Part shown: positions 26,572 through 44,087 of the stretch, piece after piece | Position numbering within the stretch: the stretch's first letter is position 1 | How the letters are laid out: every line of letters starts with the position of its first letter | Virus record (IMG/VR): IMGVR_UViG_3300025617_000006 | Source of the DNA: a virus | DNA: 64,000 bases | Reading direction: 5' to 3' (one strand) | Notes under the pieces: model-generated | The model's input: only the letters and a program-made list of their open reading frames with translations | Database searches by the model: none | Told to the model about the DNA's origin: nothing | Program-made: the position numbers and the translations under genes

Positions 26572-27006
26572 TTAGTCTTCTGGATCGTCTGACTCAAAGT
26601 CATCTGCGTCTGGATCGCCGTCAACATTATCAATAGTATCGTCTTCACCTGCTTCTTCCATTTCAACTGCATCATCATCTGTTGCATCGCTGAAGTTCCA
26701 AGCAATTGACTCGCCTGTATCAAGTGTTACTTTGCGTCCTGCAATTTTTGTAACTTGCTTTGCATTACCTGCATCGTCTTTTACTGTAATTGTCATTTCG
26801 CCATCAGTATCAATGTCACCAGTTACTTTGTCTACTAAGAAACAATCTGCTGTAGTTGTGCCATCAGTTACACGAAACTTTTTAGATCCTAATTGCTTTA
26901 CAATCCATCCGTTTACTGATGCAGATCCGTCCCAAAATTGCACTTTAATTTCGTCGCCGCCTGCTGTTGGTGGTCCAAAAAATCTTTTGTTTAGTGGTCT
27001 TCCCAT
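26572..27006 (-). CDS. Hypothetical structural protein with acidic tail
   Basis: 144 aa (MGRPLNKRFFG...GWIVKQLGSKKFRVTD). Own late promoter, structured leader, AGGAG RBS and 3' hairpin. Confidence 0.7.
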   Translation of the reverse strand: MGRPLNKRFFGPPTAGGDEIKVQFWDGSASVNGWIVKQLGSKKFRVTDGTTTADCFLVDKVTGDIDTDGEMTITVKDDAGNAKQVTKIAGRKVTLDTGESIAWNFSDATDDDAVEMEEAGEDDTIDNVDGDPDADDFESDDPED

Positions 27007-27102
27007 TTGTTTTCTCCTATATAAAGTAGTCCTATCCGGGTTCTATCCGGTACGCTGTGGGTACAGCATAAGTCCGCCTTGCGGCACACTATTTGACATA
27101 TG
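27007..27102 (-). ncRNA. Candidate multi-hairpin 5' leader RNA of 26572..27006
   Basis: GCC-GCAA-GGC, AUGCUGU-ACCC-ACAGCGU and CCGG-AUAGAAC-CCGG hairpins closed by UAGU/ACUA, between TAAATA (27103-27108) and the RBS. Confidence 0.55.
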
Positions 27103-41140: not shown

Positions 41141-41232
41141 ATTTGTTACTGCGTAACAAATTGTTTTCGCTATCGCTCAAACAGTATATCTTAAGATTAA
41201 TTAAGATGAATATTATTAATTGCGAAGCAATT
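41141..41232. other. AT-rich cluster of short hairpins with GNA/GNNA loops
   Basis: ATTTGTTAC-GCA-GTAACAAAT (-, 41141-41161); TGTTTGAGC-GATA-GCGAAAACA (-, 41162-41183); ATCTTAA...TTAAGAT (41188-41207); AATTGC-GAA-GCAATT (+, 41218-41232). Confidence 0.6.
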
Positions 41233-41234
41233 TT

Positions 41235-41660
41235 AGCATCATGTAGATTGTTTCAGTCAGACGGAACCTGTTACGGTCCCATCTAATCTCAAAATTGTGC
41301 TTCATGTGAGTTCGCCACAGCCGAGACATTGGAAGTAGGTAATTGTTTATACACAAAGTACAATGGGCTCTGACCTTTCCCAACCTACGTCGACATCATT
41401 TACGCTACGCCGTATATTCTTAAAATATACGCTACACCGTAAACTACCTCTCGCTTCGTTCCTATTGCTAAAGAGTTTTTATGTACTGTGTTTGTGTTTT
41501 TCGACAGCCAACATGCTATCTCCGTCAACCTGTGAGCCCAATTTGTTTGATGGCTTCCTACCTCTGGGTAGTCGATCAACGTGTTACGTGTGTTCCGATC
41601 AAGGATACTTTTTCCACAGCGGTATTTCTAAACTGGCCCGCCAACCTTATGTGTTGGATT
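41235..41660 (-). ncRNA. Candidate large structured non-coding RNA (~420 nt), family not recognised
   Basis: Largest gap without a credible gene in the window. Many helices; G-U pairs are possible only on the minus strand; crossing long-range pairings (see findings). Confidence 0.55.
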
Positions 41661-42096
41661 GTTTTGCCTTGATGTGATGTTCTAGCAATGCCTGTCGTAA
41701 CTTGTCTGAGCCGCCAACTCTAACATTAATAATTCCGTTGTAATACTCGTCGCTCTCTAATACACGGCGGTCAAACTGTTCTCTTGCCTCTATGTAGGAC
41801 ATTTCGCCCCTACCTTTACATAGGTATAGTATTTCTCTTGTAAACTTGTCTTCGCCTAGTGCGGCAACATCTGCGTTTAGTCTATCACTGGAACCCCAGT
41901 AAGTTTTCCAATCGCTTTCTTTAGTGCCGCGTCTTTTGTTTTTCTTGCCTTTGAGTGGTGGCTTAGTTGTTTTAAACTTTGCTAGTTTTTTGCCTATGTA
42001 TTTTTGGCCTGTAGTGGTGTTGGTAATGAGATATACAAAACCTTCATACTCATCTGGTATTGTGTTTACTTTTTTGCCTTGATAAGTCCACTCCAT
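41647..42096 (-). CDS. GIY-YIG family endonuclease (stand-alone catalytic domain)
   Basis: GFVYLITN...KYIGKK, YWGSS, FTREIL, E in SYIEAREQ, YYNG. Basic insert KFKTTKPPLKGKKNKRRG. Confidence 0.8.
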   Translation of the reverse strand: MEWTYQGKKVNTIPDEYEGFVYLITNTTTGQKYIGKKLAKFKTTKPPLKGKKNKRRGTKESDWKTYWGSSDRLNADVAALGEDKFTREILYLCKGRGEMSYIEAREQFDRRVLESDEYYNGIINVRVGGSDKLRQALLEHHIKAKQSNT

Positions 42097-42114
42097 GTGT
42101 GTACTTAACGTAGT

Positions 42115-42318
42115 CTATTTTTTATCTGCCTCTTTCCTGGCATCATACGTAGATCTAATTTCGCTCATGCGTATTTTAGCCAGTGATCTTATTTCTCTAA
42201 GCCATTTTCGGCTTGACTCCATTGTTCGCTTACCTTTGTAGGTTTCAAACTTTTCGTTCTCTTTAAAATACTCAAGATACGCTTTGGTCAATTTATCATG
42301 TGTATCGTCTTCTATCAT
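42115..42318 (-). CDS. Small hypothetical protein
   Basis: 67 aa, helical and basic; ATGA overlap with the gp46 stop. Confidence 0.65.
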   Translation of the reverse strand: MIEDDTHDKLTKAYLEYFKENEKFETYKGKRTMESSRKWLREIRSLAKIRMSEIRSTYDARKEADKK

Positions 42319-44087
42319 TCTACAATATCAACGTCATTTGCATAACTTGTAAAGCCGTTTTCTTTTACAACTTTAAGTACATTTTGCACACGCCCAACAA
42401 GTTCGTCTTTGTGTGAAATTAAATAAATGTTTTTCTTGCGCTCTCTGCCCATCTTTTTAAGGATAGCAAGACTACTTTCTACACCTGCTGTGTCCATACC
42501 ACTGTCAATCAGTTCGTCAATAAACAACAAGTTGATATTTTGATACAGACTTTCCCAAACATCACGGAATGCAAAACTTAATCCTAAGATAAGTCTGTTG
42601 CGTTCGCCTCTCGACAGATTATCAAAGTCTAAGTCTTGTCCTAGTTGTGTAATTTCAACATTCAAATCATTTTGGAACACAACTTGATGTGGCAACCCAA
42701 TCTTGTCAAGGTAATATGTAAGTCTGTTGTTTAGGTATGCAAGATTTTGATCAATAATTTTCTTACGAATAAAACTATCTTTGTTTGTAAGAAGTTTGTA
42801 CAAGAAGTCTTGGTGATCTTTAAGAGCAGTAAGATCGTTAATTGTATCCCATGATACTTCTTGTATTGCAGTATTTTCAAGATCGGTAATTTGATCAACA
42901 TACGGATCGTTTTCTGTTTCTTTTGACTTCAATGCTTGCTTTAAATTTTCAACATTTCCGCGATGCTCGTATGCTTCTTTTGCAGTTTCATAAAATGTAT
43001 TAGGCTTTGCATCTAAGTCGCCTAATTCTGCAAGTTTTTCTTGAACTCGTTTATGCTTAGTATCAACTTCTAACAAATACGTCATTGTTTCGCCGTACTC
43101 GCCTTGGAGTTGCTTTTCAATTTCGTGTTTCTTTTCTTCATGCAACTCTTGGCCACAACTATGACATTTAGCATCAACTAAATTTTCTAAGTCTTTAGTG
43201 TATTTTGTTATCTGCCGATCAGTTTGAATCAATGCACTATCAAGTGTAGCACGTTCTTTTTCTAAATTTCTTTTTTGCTGATTGTTTTCTGTCCACGTAG
43301 AAAGTTTTTCATGTGCATCAAGTTCTGCATCGATGTCTAAATGTTCAAGTTCATCAATGCCACCTTGTAAGCGGTCGCAATCTTTTGCGTTTTGTTGCTT
43401 CCATGCACTAGATTTAACTTTAAGACTATCAATTGTTTCAGAAATCTTTTCATTACTGTTTTGTACTGCACTAATACGTGCAGTTTCTTCGGTAATTGCG
43501 TCTCGAACTGCTTTTTGTTTAATTTTAAGTTCTTCGGCTTTTTCAGTAAGTATGGTAATACCTAATAACTGTTCAATAATTGCACGTTGATCGTTGGTGC
43601 GCATACTTAAAAAAGGTTCGCTATATGTATTAAGTGCAACAACATGTTTAAACATGTCATGACTCATGTGCAAAATACTAGCAATTTCGTCTTGTGTTCG
43701 ACGACTGTCGCCTTGTGACTCGTCTGACTCAGTTTGTTCGTTATTGTCAACATAAAACTTTAACAAGTTAGGAGAGCGTCCTCGCTCAATTCGATATTGT
43801 TTTCCGTCTTTTTCAAACTCAAGAGTTACTAACATGCCTTTTGAGTTAGTTTTATTAATTAGGTTGTTTAGTTTGATATTAGTCAGTGCTTGCCCATACA
43901 ATGCATAACTTAGTGCATTGGCAATAGTAGTTTTACCAGTACCGTTACGTGATCCACTGTCGTCTCCGCCTTGGTCTAGGTTTTCGCCTAATACAAGTGT
44001 TAGTTGCCTATTGCTAAAGTCAACACCCTGTGTCTGGTTGCCCACACTCATAAAGTTTTTTACAGTTAAATCTTTTAGTAATATCAT
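42315..44087 (-). CDS. gp46: Recombination endonuclease ATPase subunit (gp46, Rad50/SbcC-like)
   Basis: KNFMSVGN, Walker A GTGKTT, zinc hook CHSCGQ, signature LSRGE, Walker B LLFIDE, ISHK. Confidence 0.95.
   Translation of the reverse strand: MILLKDLTVKNFMSVGNQTQGVDFSNRQLTLVLGENLDQGGDDSGSRNGTGKTTIANALSYALYGQALTNIKLNNLINKTNSKGMLVTLEFEKDGKQYRIERGRSPNLLKFYVDNNEQTESDESQGDSRRTQDEIASILHMSHDMFKHVVALNTYSEPFLSMRTNDQRAIIEQLLGITILTEKAEELKIKQKAVRDAITEETARISAVQNSNEKISETIDSLKVKSSAWKQQNAKDCDRLQGGIDELEHLDIDAELDAHEKLSTWTENNQQKRNLEKERATLDSALIQTDRQITKYTKDLENLVDAKCHSCGQELHEEKKHEIEKQLQGEYGETMTYLLEVDTKHKRVQEKLAELGDLDAKPNTFYETAKEAYEHRGNVENLKQALKSKETENDPYVDQITDLENTAIQEVSWDTINDLTALKDHQDFLYKLLTNKDSFIRKKIIDQNLAYLNNRLTYYLDKIGLPHQVVFQNDLNVEITQLGQDLDFDNLSRGERNRLILGLSFAFRDVWESLYQNINLLFIDELIDSGMDTAGVESSLAILKKMGRERKKNIYLISHKDELVGRVQNVLKVVKENGFTSYANDVDIVE

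What the first reader, a model, noticed from the sequence alone, without database searches (positions are those of the whole stretch)
41235..42107. GIY-YIG nuclease co-transcribed with a ~420-nt ornate structured RNA: candidate new ribonucleoprotein system
Seen: right after the nuclease stop, with no terminator, lies the largest non-genic stretch of the window. Minus-strand helices: CCAAC/GUUGG across the stop codon; UGGCGG/CCGCUG (41643-38/41622-17); CUACC-CAGA-GGUAG (41558-41571); a long hairpin UUUACG..CGUAUAUU/AAUAUACG..CGUAAA (41399-41443); GUAGGU/ACCUAC (41383-88/41335-40); and AGAUGGGACC-GUAACA-GGUUCCGUCU (41259-41284). The last has two G-U pairs that would be A-C mismatches on the + strand, fixing the orientation. 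Two long-range crossing pairings leave the GUAGGU/ACCUAC loop: UGGGCUC/GAGCCCA (41534-40/41364-70) and AGUACA/UGUACU (41482-87/41357-62), i.e. pseudoknots. ACAUGA(A/U)GC and GCUGUGG each occur twice. The nuclease is a bare catalytic domain with a K/R-rich insert and no C-terminal DNA-binding domain. I see no hallmarks of group I/II introns, RNase P or tmRNA. Established: large phage ncRNAs (GOLLD, ROOL) and nuclease-associated RNAs (HEARO/omega RNA with IscB) exist. Inference: either the RNA supplies specificity or scaffolding to the nuclease, or it is an independent large ncRNA. Caveat: similar short GIY-YIG genes are widespread in T4-like phages, so adjacency alone does not prove partnership.
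Basis: partly seen in the sequence, partly recalled or inferred. Interest (0 to 1): 0.85.

Follow-up and report, generated by a model that had tools for sequence, protein, structure and literature searches.

The report
Twin-box phage RNA beside nuclease
The gene-free stretch after a small DNA-cutting enzyme gene of this uncultured marine phage encodes a real, roughly 430-base, doubly knotted RNA that matches no catalogued family, carries one short word twice, and is probably not the enzyme's guide.

Summary
Window 41661-41233 (minus strand) is a conserved, non-coding, highly structured RNA. On 102 distinct relatives from IMG/VR, 14 helices (76 pairs, two pseudoknots) are 95% paired, against 35-40% in slid controls, and 46 pairs show compensatory changes. 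CCAAC over the stop codon pairs with a hairpin loop 145 nt downstream, not with the adjacent GUUGG. UGGGCUC/GAGCCCA is not general. Rfam 15, ARAGORN, 185,579 prokaryote genomes and 50,697 isolate phage records gave no match.

The nuclease-partner reading is not supported:
- The RNA occurs without any SegE-type GIY-YIG gene in a second lineage of small phages.
- The nuclease occurs without the RNA in phage Melnitz.
- An extra ORF sometimes separates the two.
- RNA classes are interspersed on the nuclease tree.
- There is no guide-like segment.

The oddest feature is a pair of identical single-stranded words (ACAUGAA) that flank a stable hairpin and change in step, with no complement inside the RNA.

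Best reading: an autonomous phage non-coding RNA whose twin boxes engage an outside nucleic acid or act as strand-transfer repeats. Its function is unproven.

This scan found the same family earlier on other genomes.

The parts
41647..42096 (-). SegE-type GIY-YIG nuclease gene (149 aa), upstream neighbour of the RNA. Its last four codons overlap the RNA's 5' pseudoknot strand.
   Evidence: Pfam PF19835 E 1.2e-35. phrog_447 E 1.3e-39. AF2 model pLDDT 82, best PDB match I-TevI catalytic domain, prob 0.90.
41233..41661 (-). Twin-box RNA, conserved structured body (about 430 nt). The true ends are not mapped.
   Evidence: Conserved in more than 100 IMG/VR contigs. 76 pairs 95.1% paired, 0/500 shuffles reach any measure.
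41653..41657 (-). PK1 5' strand CCAAC
   Evidence: 100% paired with 41508-41512. CG/AU/GC, CG/UA and AU/GC variants.
41503..41520 (-). Hairpin H5 (GAUAG/CUGUC). Its loop GUUGG 41512-41508 is the PK1 3' strand.
41618..41642 (-). Hairpin H1 (GGCGG/CCGCU)
   Evidence: 98.6% paired, 4 of 5 pairs compensatory.
41588..41617 (-). H2: outer GUG/CAC plus inner variable hairpin
   Evidence: UA/AU/GC and GC/CG/UA variants.
41523..41581 (-). H3 (CGUUGAUC/GGUUGACG), enclosing H4 (CUACC-CAGA-GGUAG, 41558-41571) and a subfamily-specific insert
   Evidence: 6 of 8 pairs compensatory. H4 has 4 of 5.
41482..41493 (-). Long-range helix X, 5' strand
   Evidence: Pairs with 41351-41362. GUACA/UGUAC, ACACA/UGUGU, GUUCA/UGAAC, GUGCA/UGCAC.
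41351..41362 (-). Long-range helix X, 3' strand
   Evidence: As above.
41448..41475 (-). Helix Y (CUCUU/GAGAG) closing a loop that holds the nearly invariant GGAACGAAGC
   Evidence: All 5 pairs compensatory. GGAACGA invariant.
41396..41446 (-). Hairpin Z, variable in length (tetraloop-capped stub to more than 100 nt)
41361..41394 (-). Nearly invariant core GUCGACGUAGGUUGGGAAAGGUCAGAGCCCAUUG. Includes the S 5' strand 41383-41388.
   Evidence: Invariant columns. 21-mer found in more than 119 viral contigs and in 0 prokaryote genomes.
41335..41340 (-). S 3' strand ACCUAC. It pairs across helix X with 41383-41388 (second pseudoknot).
   Evidence: 98.9% paired, UA/GC/CG variants.
41286..41327 (-). 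Helix W (GUCUC/GAGAU), enclosing box 1
   Evidence: 81% paired, 4 of 6 pairs compensatory. The alignment is weaker here.
41299..41310 (-). Twin box 1, CUCACAUGAAGC
   Evidence: Changes in step with box 2.
41259..41284 (-). Hairpin V (10 bp) between the boxes
   Evidence: 97.4% paired, many G-U pairs fix the strand.
41236..41247 (-). Twin box 2, UCUACAUGAUGC
   Evidence: In this window it differs from box 1 at one position of the core.
41218..41232 (-). Variable 3' hairpin after box 2 (possible terminator or 3' protection)
   Evidence: A hairpin of changing sequence stands at this place in relatives. Not called by the terminator scan.
41163..41182 (-). Conserved hairpin GUUU-GA-GC(GNNA)GC-GA-AAAC with tandem G-A pairs. 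Possibly part of the same transcript.
   Evidence: Present 45-114 nt after V in 129 of 190 loci, in both RNA classes. AGUUU/AAACU changes to ACUUU/AAAGU.

Best explanation
An autonomous structured non-coding RNA gene of marine phages ('twin-box RNA'). Here it lies at the 3' end of the gp46-orf67-GIY-YIG gene string and is probably transcribed with it.

Shown: a ~430-nt RNA with at least 14 helices and two pseudoknots, conserved far beyond its neighbours.

Inferred: the large knotted body, with its 34-nt near-invariant core, is a scaffold. The working end is a module of two identical, unpaired 7-8-nt words (core ACAUGAA) on either side of a stable hairpin. Because the two words must stay identical, and nothing inside the RNA is complementary to them, they most likely meet the same outside sequence twice by base pairing. 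Alternatively they let a nascent complementary strand move from one box to the other.

The nuclease is a neighbour, not an obligate partner.

My odds:
- Real, independent structured RNA: about 0.9.
- Acts through the twin boxes on an external nucleic acid: about 0.35-0.4.
For: Structure:
- 95.1% of 7217 cells are paired, against 35-40% when partners are slid.
- 46 pairs show changes on both sides, against 16-23 in the slid controls.
- 0 of 500 shuffles reach any measure.

Novelty:
- No Rfam 15 match at gathering score in the window.
- None better than noise at E<=10 around the locus, or at E<=1 in 8 relatives.
- No tRNA or tmRNA.
- The core 21-mer is absent from the 185,579-genome collection.
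- In isolate phages only the nuclease part finds a match.

Independence from the nuclease:
- The L107/L113/L198-L200 lineage has the RNA next to terS/terL and no SegE GIY-YIG.
- The Melnitz nuclease has no RNA behind it.
- An ORF is inserted between the two in seven contigs.
- RNA classes are interspersed on the nuclease tree; class B needs at least 3 changes.

Twin boxes:
- 22 aligned sequences, plus 3 misaligned ones, carry departures that are identical in both boxes: CGUGAA, CAUAAU, CAUGAU, CAUGAG, UAUGAA, CAUAAA, ACAGAAAG, AUCAUCAAGU.
- Only 2 sequences differ between boxes.
- A>G arose in both boxes in at least 3 backgrounds with no third column changing.
- No internal complement exists.
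- A second, different RNA body (class B) at the same locus keeps the same boxes and hairpin layout.

Expression: RNA-library contigs of 4 studies hold the RNA, and some bridge the nuclease stop codon.
Against: - No outside target was found. Complements of the boxes in the 64-kb window occur at chance level.
- Transcript ends, strand and abundance are unknown, because only assembled contigs could be laid.
- Part of the in-step variation follows clades, so the number of independent events is small.
- The boxes could be constrained at the DNA level.
- In every gp46-locus contig with room, the nuclease is present upstream of an RNA. A looser functional tie within this phage group is therefore not excluded.
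Confidence: 0.5

Rival explanations
1. Nuclease-RNA ribonucleoprotein: the RNA guides or scaffolds the domain-only GIY-YIG nuclease.
For: - Adjacency is constant in the T4-like group. All RNA-selected contigs with upstream DNA, and all 40 gp46-selected contigs with room, have the nuclease upstream of an RNA.
- No terminator lies between them.
- RNA-library contigs bridge the junction.
- The protein has a conserved K/R-rich beta-hairpin insert and no DNA-binding tail.
Against: - RNA without the nuclease.
- Nuclease without the RNA.
- An ORF sits between them in 7 contigs.
- RNA classes are swapped relative to the nuclease tree.
- No hypervariable guide-like segment.
- About 148 aa is the family's usual size.
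Confidence: 0.1
2. The adjacency is a homing arrangement. A free-standing Seg-like endonuclease gene sits beside a highly conserved RNA gene whose invariant DNA it cuts in nuclease-less relatives, as Seg and Mob genes do in T4. The RNA's own job is unrelated.
For: - SegE-type family.
- The homologue in Melnitz lies in another context, after nrdB.
- Other genes are inserted between gp46 and the nuclease in some contigs.
- The 34-nt invariant stretch would make a good recognition site.
- That Seg and Mob genes home next to conserved genes is established knowledge of T4 (from memory).
Against: - No presence/absence polymorphism: the nuclease is in all 40 gp46-locus contigs with room.
- It is conserved at 64-94% aa with intact motifs.
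- No DNA-binding domain.
- No nuclease-less allele of this locus was found.
Confidence: 0.12
3. Template RNA with terminal repeats: a polymerase copies the box-to-box unit (51-67 nt). The nascent strand then jumps from box 1 back to box 2, giving tandem repeats, as in DRT2 with its ACA-1/ACA-2 words or in telomerase-like DRT10.
For: - Selection for identity of two direct words that bracket a stem-loop, with no cis complement, is what strand transfer requires.
- DRT2 precedent: 10.1101/2024.05.08.593200.
Against: - No RVT_1 gene in five large related contigs.
- Unit lengths are not multiples of 3, and a concatemer has stops in all frames in 68 of 100 sequences, so there is no Neo-like gene.
- No back-joints at the boxes among the laid contigs (weak, contigs only).
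Confidence: 0.1
4. Self-processing or processed RNA: the conserved core is a ribozyme, or a host RNase acts. The transcript is cut at both boxes to release, or circularise, the ~55-nt hairpin RNA.
For: - Long invariant junction strands typical of catalytic cores.
- Identical words at both borders of a hairpin.
Against: - No match to any Rfam ribozyme or intron model.
- No guide strand covaries with the boxes.
- No ends could be mapped.
Confidence: 0.1
5. A cis-acting 3' UTR or DNA-level element (mRNA stabiliser, termination control, or origin/iteron region) rather than a trans-acting RNA.
For: - Sits at the end of an operon and is followed by hairpins and an AT-rich tract.
- Direct repeats could be protein sites on DNA.
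Against: - About 430 nt with 14 covarying helices, G-U pairs and two pseudoknots is far more than a stabiliser needs.
- It moves between unrelated gene contexts.
- The box words change too freely for a protein site.
Confidence: 0.08

Closest known systems
GOLLD and ROOL RNAs (large ornate non-coding RNAs, often phage-borne; in Rfam)
   Same: Several hundred nucleotides, many covarying helices and pseudoknots, carried by phages, found through metagenomes, function unknown.
   Different: No sequence or structure match by Infernal. Smaller. Marine T4-like and small phages. Has the twin-box module. Oligomer formation was not tested.
HEARO/omega RNA with IscB and other nuclease-guide RNAs
   Same: A structured RNA encoded directly beside a nuclease gene.
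   Different: RNA and nuclease are separable both ways. The RNA has no variable guide end. The nuclease is GIY-YIG, not HNH/RuvC. No Rfam HEARO match.
Free-standing Seg/Mob homing endonuclease genes of T4-like phages (e.g. SegB in the tRNA gene cluster; from memory)
   Same: A small GIY-YIG gene of the SegE Pfam family beside a conserved RNA gene. Different context in Melnitz.
   Different: No DNA-binding tail. No sporadic distribution in this phage group. Cleavage target unknown.
DRT2 non-coding RNA with ACA-1/ACA-2 template-jump words (10.1101/2024.05.08.593200)
   Same: A pseudoknotted ncRNA in which two identical short words bracket a stem-loop-bounded unit and must stay identical.
   Different: No reverse transcriptase nearby. 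Phage-encoded, not a host defence. Words of 7-8 nt rather than 3. No stop-free concatemer frame.
Group I introns carrying GIY-YIG genes (I-TevI type)
   Same: A GIY-YIG gene next to a knotted RNA whose topology (long-range helix crossed by a second helix) recalls P3/P7.
   Different: No RF00028 hit even at E<=10. No flanking exons: homology ends at the RNA and the downstream DNA varies. The junction lengths do not fit.

Membership tests
Any Rfam 15 family (incl. GOLLD, ROOL, HEARO, Intron_gpI, RNase P, tmRNA, Polynucleobacter-1) | Covariance-model match at or near the gathering score | tested here: not met
   Window at gathering score: only freshwater-2, elsewhere. Locus at E<=10: only noise, 17-21 bits. 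Eight relatives of all classes at E<=1: nothing at the RNA.
Group I intron | Interrupts a gene, so conserved exons lie on both sides | tested here: not met
   Upstream ORFs end at the RNA's 5' end, and these ORFs differ between contigs (nuclease, extra small ORF, 71-aa ORF). Downstream homology stops at about 41231.
Two-piece tmRNA (known in Melnitz; PMC9004378) | tRNA-like domain and tag reading frame detectable by ARAGORN or Rfam | tested here: not met
   ARAGORN found 0 genes and Rfam found none. The Melnitz ssrA lies at another locus.
Guide RNA of an RNA-guided nuclease (OMEGA-like) | Obligate co-occurrence of RNA and nuclease gene | tested here: not met
   RNA without the nuclease in 5 contigs, one 85% complete. 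Nuclease without the RNA in Melnitz.
Guide RNA of an RNA-guided nuclease (OMEGA-like) | Hypervariable single-stranded guide segment beside a conserved scaffold | tested here: not met
   Variable parts are stems and loops of hairpins (H1 loop, H2, H4, Z). The unpaired strands are the most conserved.
GIY-YIG nuclease superfamily (the protein) | Family profile match and GIY-YIG fold | tested here: met
   PF19835 at 122.9 bits, cut-off 25. Best PDB fold match is the I-TevI catalytic domain, weak (E 0.16, prob 0.90). The GFVY...KYIG motif, R55/R56, E103 and N120 are invariant in 21 homologues.
Seg-type free-standing homing endonuclease | Sporadic presence among close relatives | tested here: not met
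   Present in all 40 gp46-selected contigs with at least 1500 nt of room.
Seg-type free-standing homing endonuclease | C-terminal DNA-binding domain | tested here: not met
   149 aa, with the catalytic domain over residues 3-123. The family profile is 148 long.
DRT2-like template ncRNA | Reverse transcriptase encoded alongside | tested here: not met
   No RVT_1 in five contigs of 25-236 kb. These are incomplete genomes, so absence is not proven.
DRT2-like template ncRNA | Identical words at both ends of the template unit | tested here: met
   Twin boxes are identical and change in step. This is a likeness in layout only.
DRT2-like template ncRNA | Stop-free frame through the concatenated unit | tested here: not met
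   Closed in 68 of 100 sequences. Unit lengths are 51-67 nt with no preference for multiples of 3.

The most novel reading that the evidence does not exclude
The twin boxes make this a phage-encoded programmable RNA. Either it is a template whose identical end-words drive repeated strand transfer (tandem-repeat DNA or RNA synthesis by a host or phage polymerase). Or it is a two-headed reader that clamps two copies of one outside sequence, possibly delivering it to the neighbouring GIY-YIG nuclease in the T4-like lineage.
Probability: 0.15. Interest if true: 0.92.

Novelty: new variant of a known kind. Interest (0 to 1): 0.72.

Why it matters
Large, intricately folded RNAs with no known function are rare, and they have repeatedly led to new biochemistry (ribozymes, riboswitches, guide RNAs, RNA cages, template RNAs). 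This one is abundant in marine and estuarine viromes. It occurs in at least two unrelated phage types and comes in at least two body forms. It has a simple, testable signature: two words that must stay identical. That gives a direct experiment (change one box, or both). It also gives a direct sequencing test (look for box-to-box junctions or for RNAs or DNAs bound to the boxes). The work also corrects a tempting over-reading: a nuclease gene next to an ornate RNA is not by itself an RNA-guided nuclease.

Tried and rejected
- Decayed C-terminal domain or hidden ORF in the gap: rejected. ORFs are not conserved (median longest 26 aa on the RNA strand, 55 on the other). Indels are not in threes.
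- tmRNA as in Melnitz: rejected.
- Group I intron, RNase P and Polynucleobacter-1 likeness: no model match.
- Twin boxes pairing with each other or with an internal strand: no complement, and no third covarying column. The CAUAAU variant would not self-pair.
- Twin boxes as start codons of a small ORF: the frame is not conserved, and some box variants have no AUG or GUG.
- Neo-like concatemer gene: rejected.
- Box complements elsewhere in the window: chance level. One pair of 7-mers at 441-467 lies inside coding sequence.
- Own-genome search: no genome is held for this window.
- Read laying gave only assembled contigs. It gave no strand, ends or level. Parts without cover and the absence of box-to-box joints carry no weight.
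- Folding energy of the single sequence is not significant.
- Fold search of the nuclease against the PDB gave only a weak I-TevI match. The sequence search of the PDB gave nothing useful.
- A covariance model was not built. A model of the whole RNA would exceed the tool's stated size and calibration-time limits, and the pair counts already answered the question.

Full report
**Setting.** The window comes from an uncultured T4-like marine or estuarine myophage. On the minus strand the order is:
- a gp46-like SbcC/Rad50 ATPase, 44087..42315 (AAA_23/SMC_N);
- a 67-aa ORF;
- a 149-aa SegE-type GIY-YIG protein, 42096..41647 (PF19835, E 1.2e-35; phrog_447);
- a gene-free stretch;
- an AT-rich tract and a 214-aa ORF.

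Related IMG/VR contigs of 120-236 kb are rated only 33-66% complete, so these are probably very large phages. The nearest isolate match for the nuclease is Methylophilales phage Melnitz (70% aa). There the gene lies after nrdB and is followed by an ordinary 148-nt spacer.

**Is the RNA real?**
- Folding energy of the single sequence says little (z -1.45 and +0.13).
- Comparison says a lot. Eighty contigs chosen by the nuclease and more than 119 chosen by a 21-nt core word share the block at 72-92% identity. Homology ends sharply at window 41231-41239.
- I aligned 102 distinct copies (A1). I found pairings by mutual information and by eye, then had a 76-pair, 14-helix structure counted.
- 95.1% of cells are paired, against 35-40% with slid partners.
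- 46 pairs have changes on both sides, against 16-23 in the slid controls. That is 684 such cells, against 31-113.
- None of 500 shuffles reaches the observed value on any of the five measures.
- Abundant G-U pairs fix the minus strand.
- ORFs in the stretch are not conserved.

**Anatomy (minus strand).**
- PK1: CCAAC 41657-41653, inside the last codons of the nuclease gene, pairs with the loop of hairpin H5 (41512-41508). This pairing is 100% kept through CUAAC/GUUAG and ACAGC/GCUGU changes.
- Then come H1, H2, and H3 enclosing H4, then H5.
- The long-range helix X (41493-41482 with 41362-41351) shows four pair types.
- Helix Y closes a loop with the invariant GGAACGA.
- Hairpin Z varies in length.
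- A 34-nt near-invariant strand follows (41394-41361).
- Helix S (41388-41383 with 41340-41335) crosses X and forms a second pseudoknot.
- Last come helix W, hairpin V and a variable 3' hairpin.

**Is it known?**
- Rfam 15 gives nothing at gathering score.
- It gives only noise at E<=10 around the locus, and nothing at E<=1 in eight relatives of every class.
- ARAGORN finds no tRNA or tmRNA. The Melnitz tmRNA is at another locus (PMC9004378).
- The core word is absent from the collection of 185,579 prokaryote genomes.
- The stretch with the RNA matches no isolate phage apart from the nuclease part.
- Full-text searches found no description.
- This scan has met the same family before on other genomes, and follow-up agents reached similar verdicts. 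I checked the points I reuse.

**Relation to the nuclease.**

For a link:
- In the T4-like group the nuclease is always upstream of an RNA.
- There is no terminator between them.
- RNA-library contigs from four studies cover both, and some bridge the stop codon. These are contigs only, so transcription, strand and ends are not shown.

Against an obligate link:
1. A second lineage (L107, L113, L198-L200) carries a ~390-nt version next to terS/terL. It has no SegE-type gene anywhere on its contigs, one of which is 85% complete at 25.6 kb.
2. Melnitz has the nuclease without the RNA. Homologues are in 789 isolate phage records, but the stretch with the RNA matched isolates only over the nuclease gene, in the four Melnitz records.
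3. In seven contigs a further small ORF separates nuclease and RNA, and the RNA's 5' end then overlaps that ORF's stop instead.
4. Among gp46-selected contigs, six have the same 3' domain with a different 5' domain. Eight have a different ~370-nt structured RNA ('class B'), which has its own compensatory changes.
5. On a nuclease tree these classes are interspersed; class B needs at least three changes (a quick tree with few columns).
6. The variable parts of the RNA are stems and hairpin loops, not a guide-like strand.

The protein models as a GIY-YIG core most like the I-TevI catalytic domain, with a conserved K/R-rich beta-hairpin. About 148 aa is the family norm.

**The twin boxes.**
- CUCACAUGAAGC (41310-41299) and UCUACAUGAUGC (41247-41236) bracket helix W's 3' strand and hairpin V.
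- Across the family the core CAUGAA changes in step: CGUGAA (4), CAUAAU (9), CAUGAU (5), CAUGAG (2), UAUGAA (1) and CAUAAA (1).
- In the second lineage the words are ACAGAAAG and AUCAUCAAGU, again the same in both boxes.
- Only this window and one other sequence differ between boxes.
- The A>G change occurred in both boxes in at least three backgrounds with no other column changing.
- No complement exists in the RNA or, above chance, in the window.
- Class B keeps the same boxes around a different hairpin.

Identity as such therefore seems to be selected. That fits two copies of one outside partner, or transfer of a nascent complementary strand between the boxes, as with ACA-1/ACA-2 in DRT2. 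Against a DRT2-like gene-building role:
- the unit is 51-67 nt with no preference for multiples of three;
- concatemers are closed in 68 of 100 sequences;
- no reverse transcriptase is found on five large contigs.

**Verdict.** The ribonucleoprotein reading is not supported. The function is unknown, and I commit, at modest odds, to action through the twin boxes on an external nucleic acid.

**Downstream element.** A further conserved hairpin with tandem G-A pairs and a GNNA loop lies at 41182-41163. It occurs in 129 of 190 loci, with one compensatory change. It may belong to the same transcript.

Noticed in passing
L202:3049-3503, L203, L204, L206, L220, L236, L262, L269: A second, different ~370-nt structured RNA ('class B') sits behind the same nuclease gene. 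It has its own compensatory changes and shares only a 5' hairpin, the twin boxes ACAUGAUG and the 3' hairpin with the window's RNA.
   Followed up: partly
L240, L242, L253, L258, L265, L270 (downstream of the nuclease): Variant of the window's RNA with the same 3' domain (helix X as GCUAC/GUAGC) but a shorter, different 5' domain. This implies modular exchange of RNA domains.
   Followed up: partly
L098:4397-4660 and the same place in L136, L145, L109, L122, L091, L095: An extra small ORF lies between nuclease and RNA, with a G-K-x-x-G-K-x-L-S-x-L...Y-L-x-W motif. From memory it resembles DUF3820; this was not tested.
   Followed up: no
window 41163-41182 (-) and 41141-41162 (-): Conserved hairpin GUUU-GA-GC(GNNA)GC-GA-AAAC, followed by a variable hairpin. 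It lies 45-114 nt after hairpin V in 129 of 190 loci and in both RNA classes. The tandem G-A pairs would be T-C mismatches on the other strand.
   Followed up: partly
L113:1362-1752 (-), L107:6684-7073, L198-L200: The RNA family also occurs in a small phage type (one contig of 25.6 kb rated 85% complete), upstream of a 99-aa ORF, terS and terL. In L113 it is preceded by a TTGACA-17-TATAAT promoter-like site and a 71-aa ORF.
   Followed up: partly
IMG/VR contigs behind L008, L022, L031, L035, L044, L046, L056, L065, L077 and others: Many assemblies end inside the RNA, at about window 41575, 41500 and 41450. These are the borders of its variable hairpins, so this is probably strain microdiversity breaking the assembly graphs.
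   Followed up: no
window 27004-27088 (-): Rfam freshwater-2 RNA motif (RF02980): 70.7 bits against a gathering score of 49.9.
   Followed up: no
window 41641-41657 (+): Terminator-like site on the plus strand (CCAACCTTATGTGTTGG followed by a T-rich run). The number of such sites in the region equals chance expectation.
   Followed up: no
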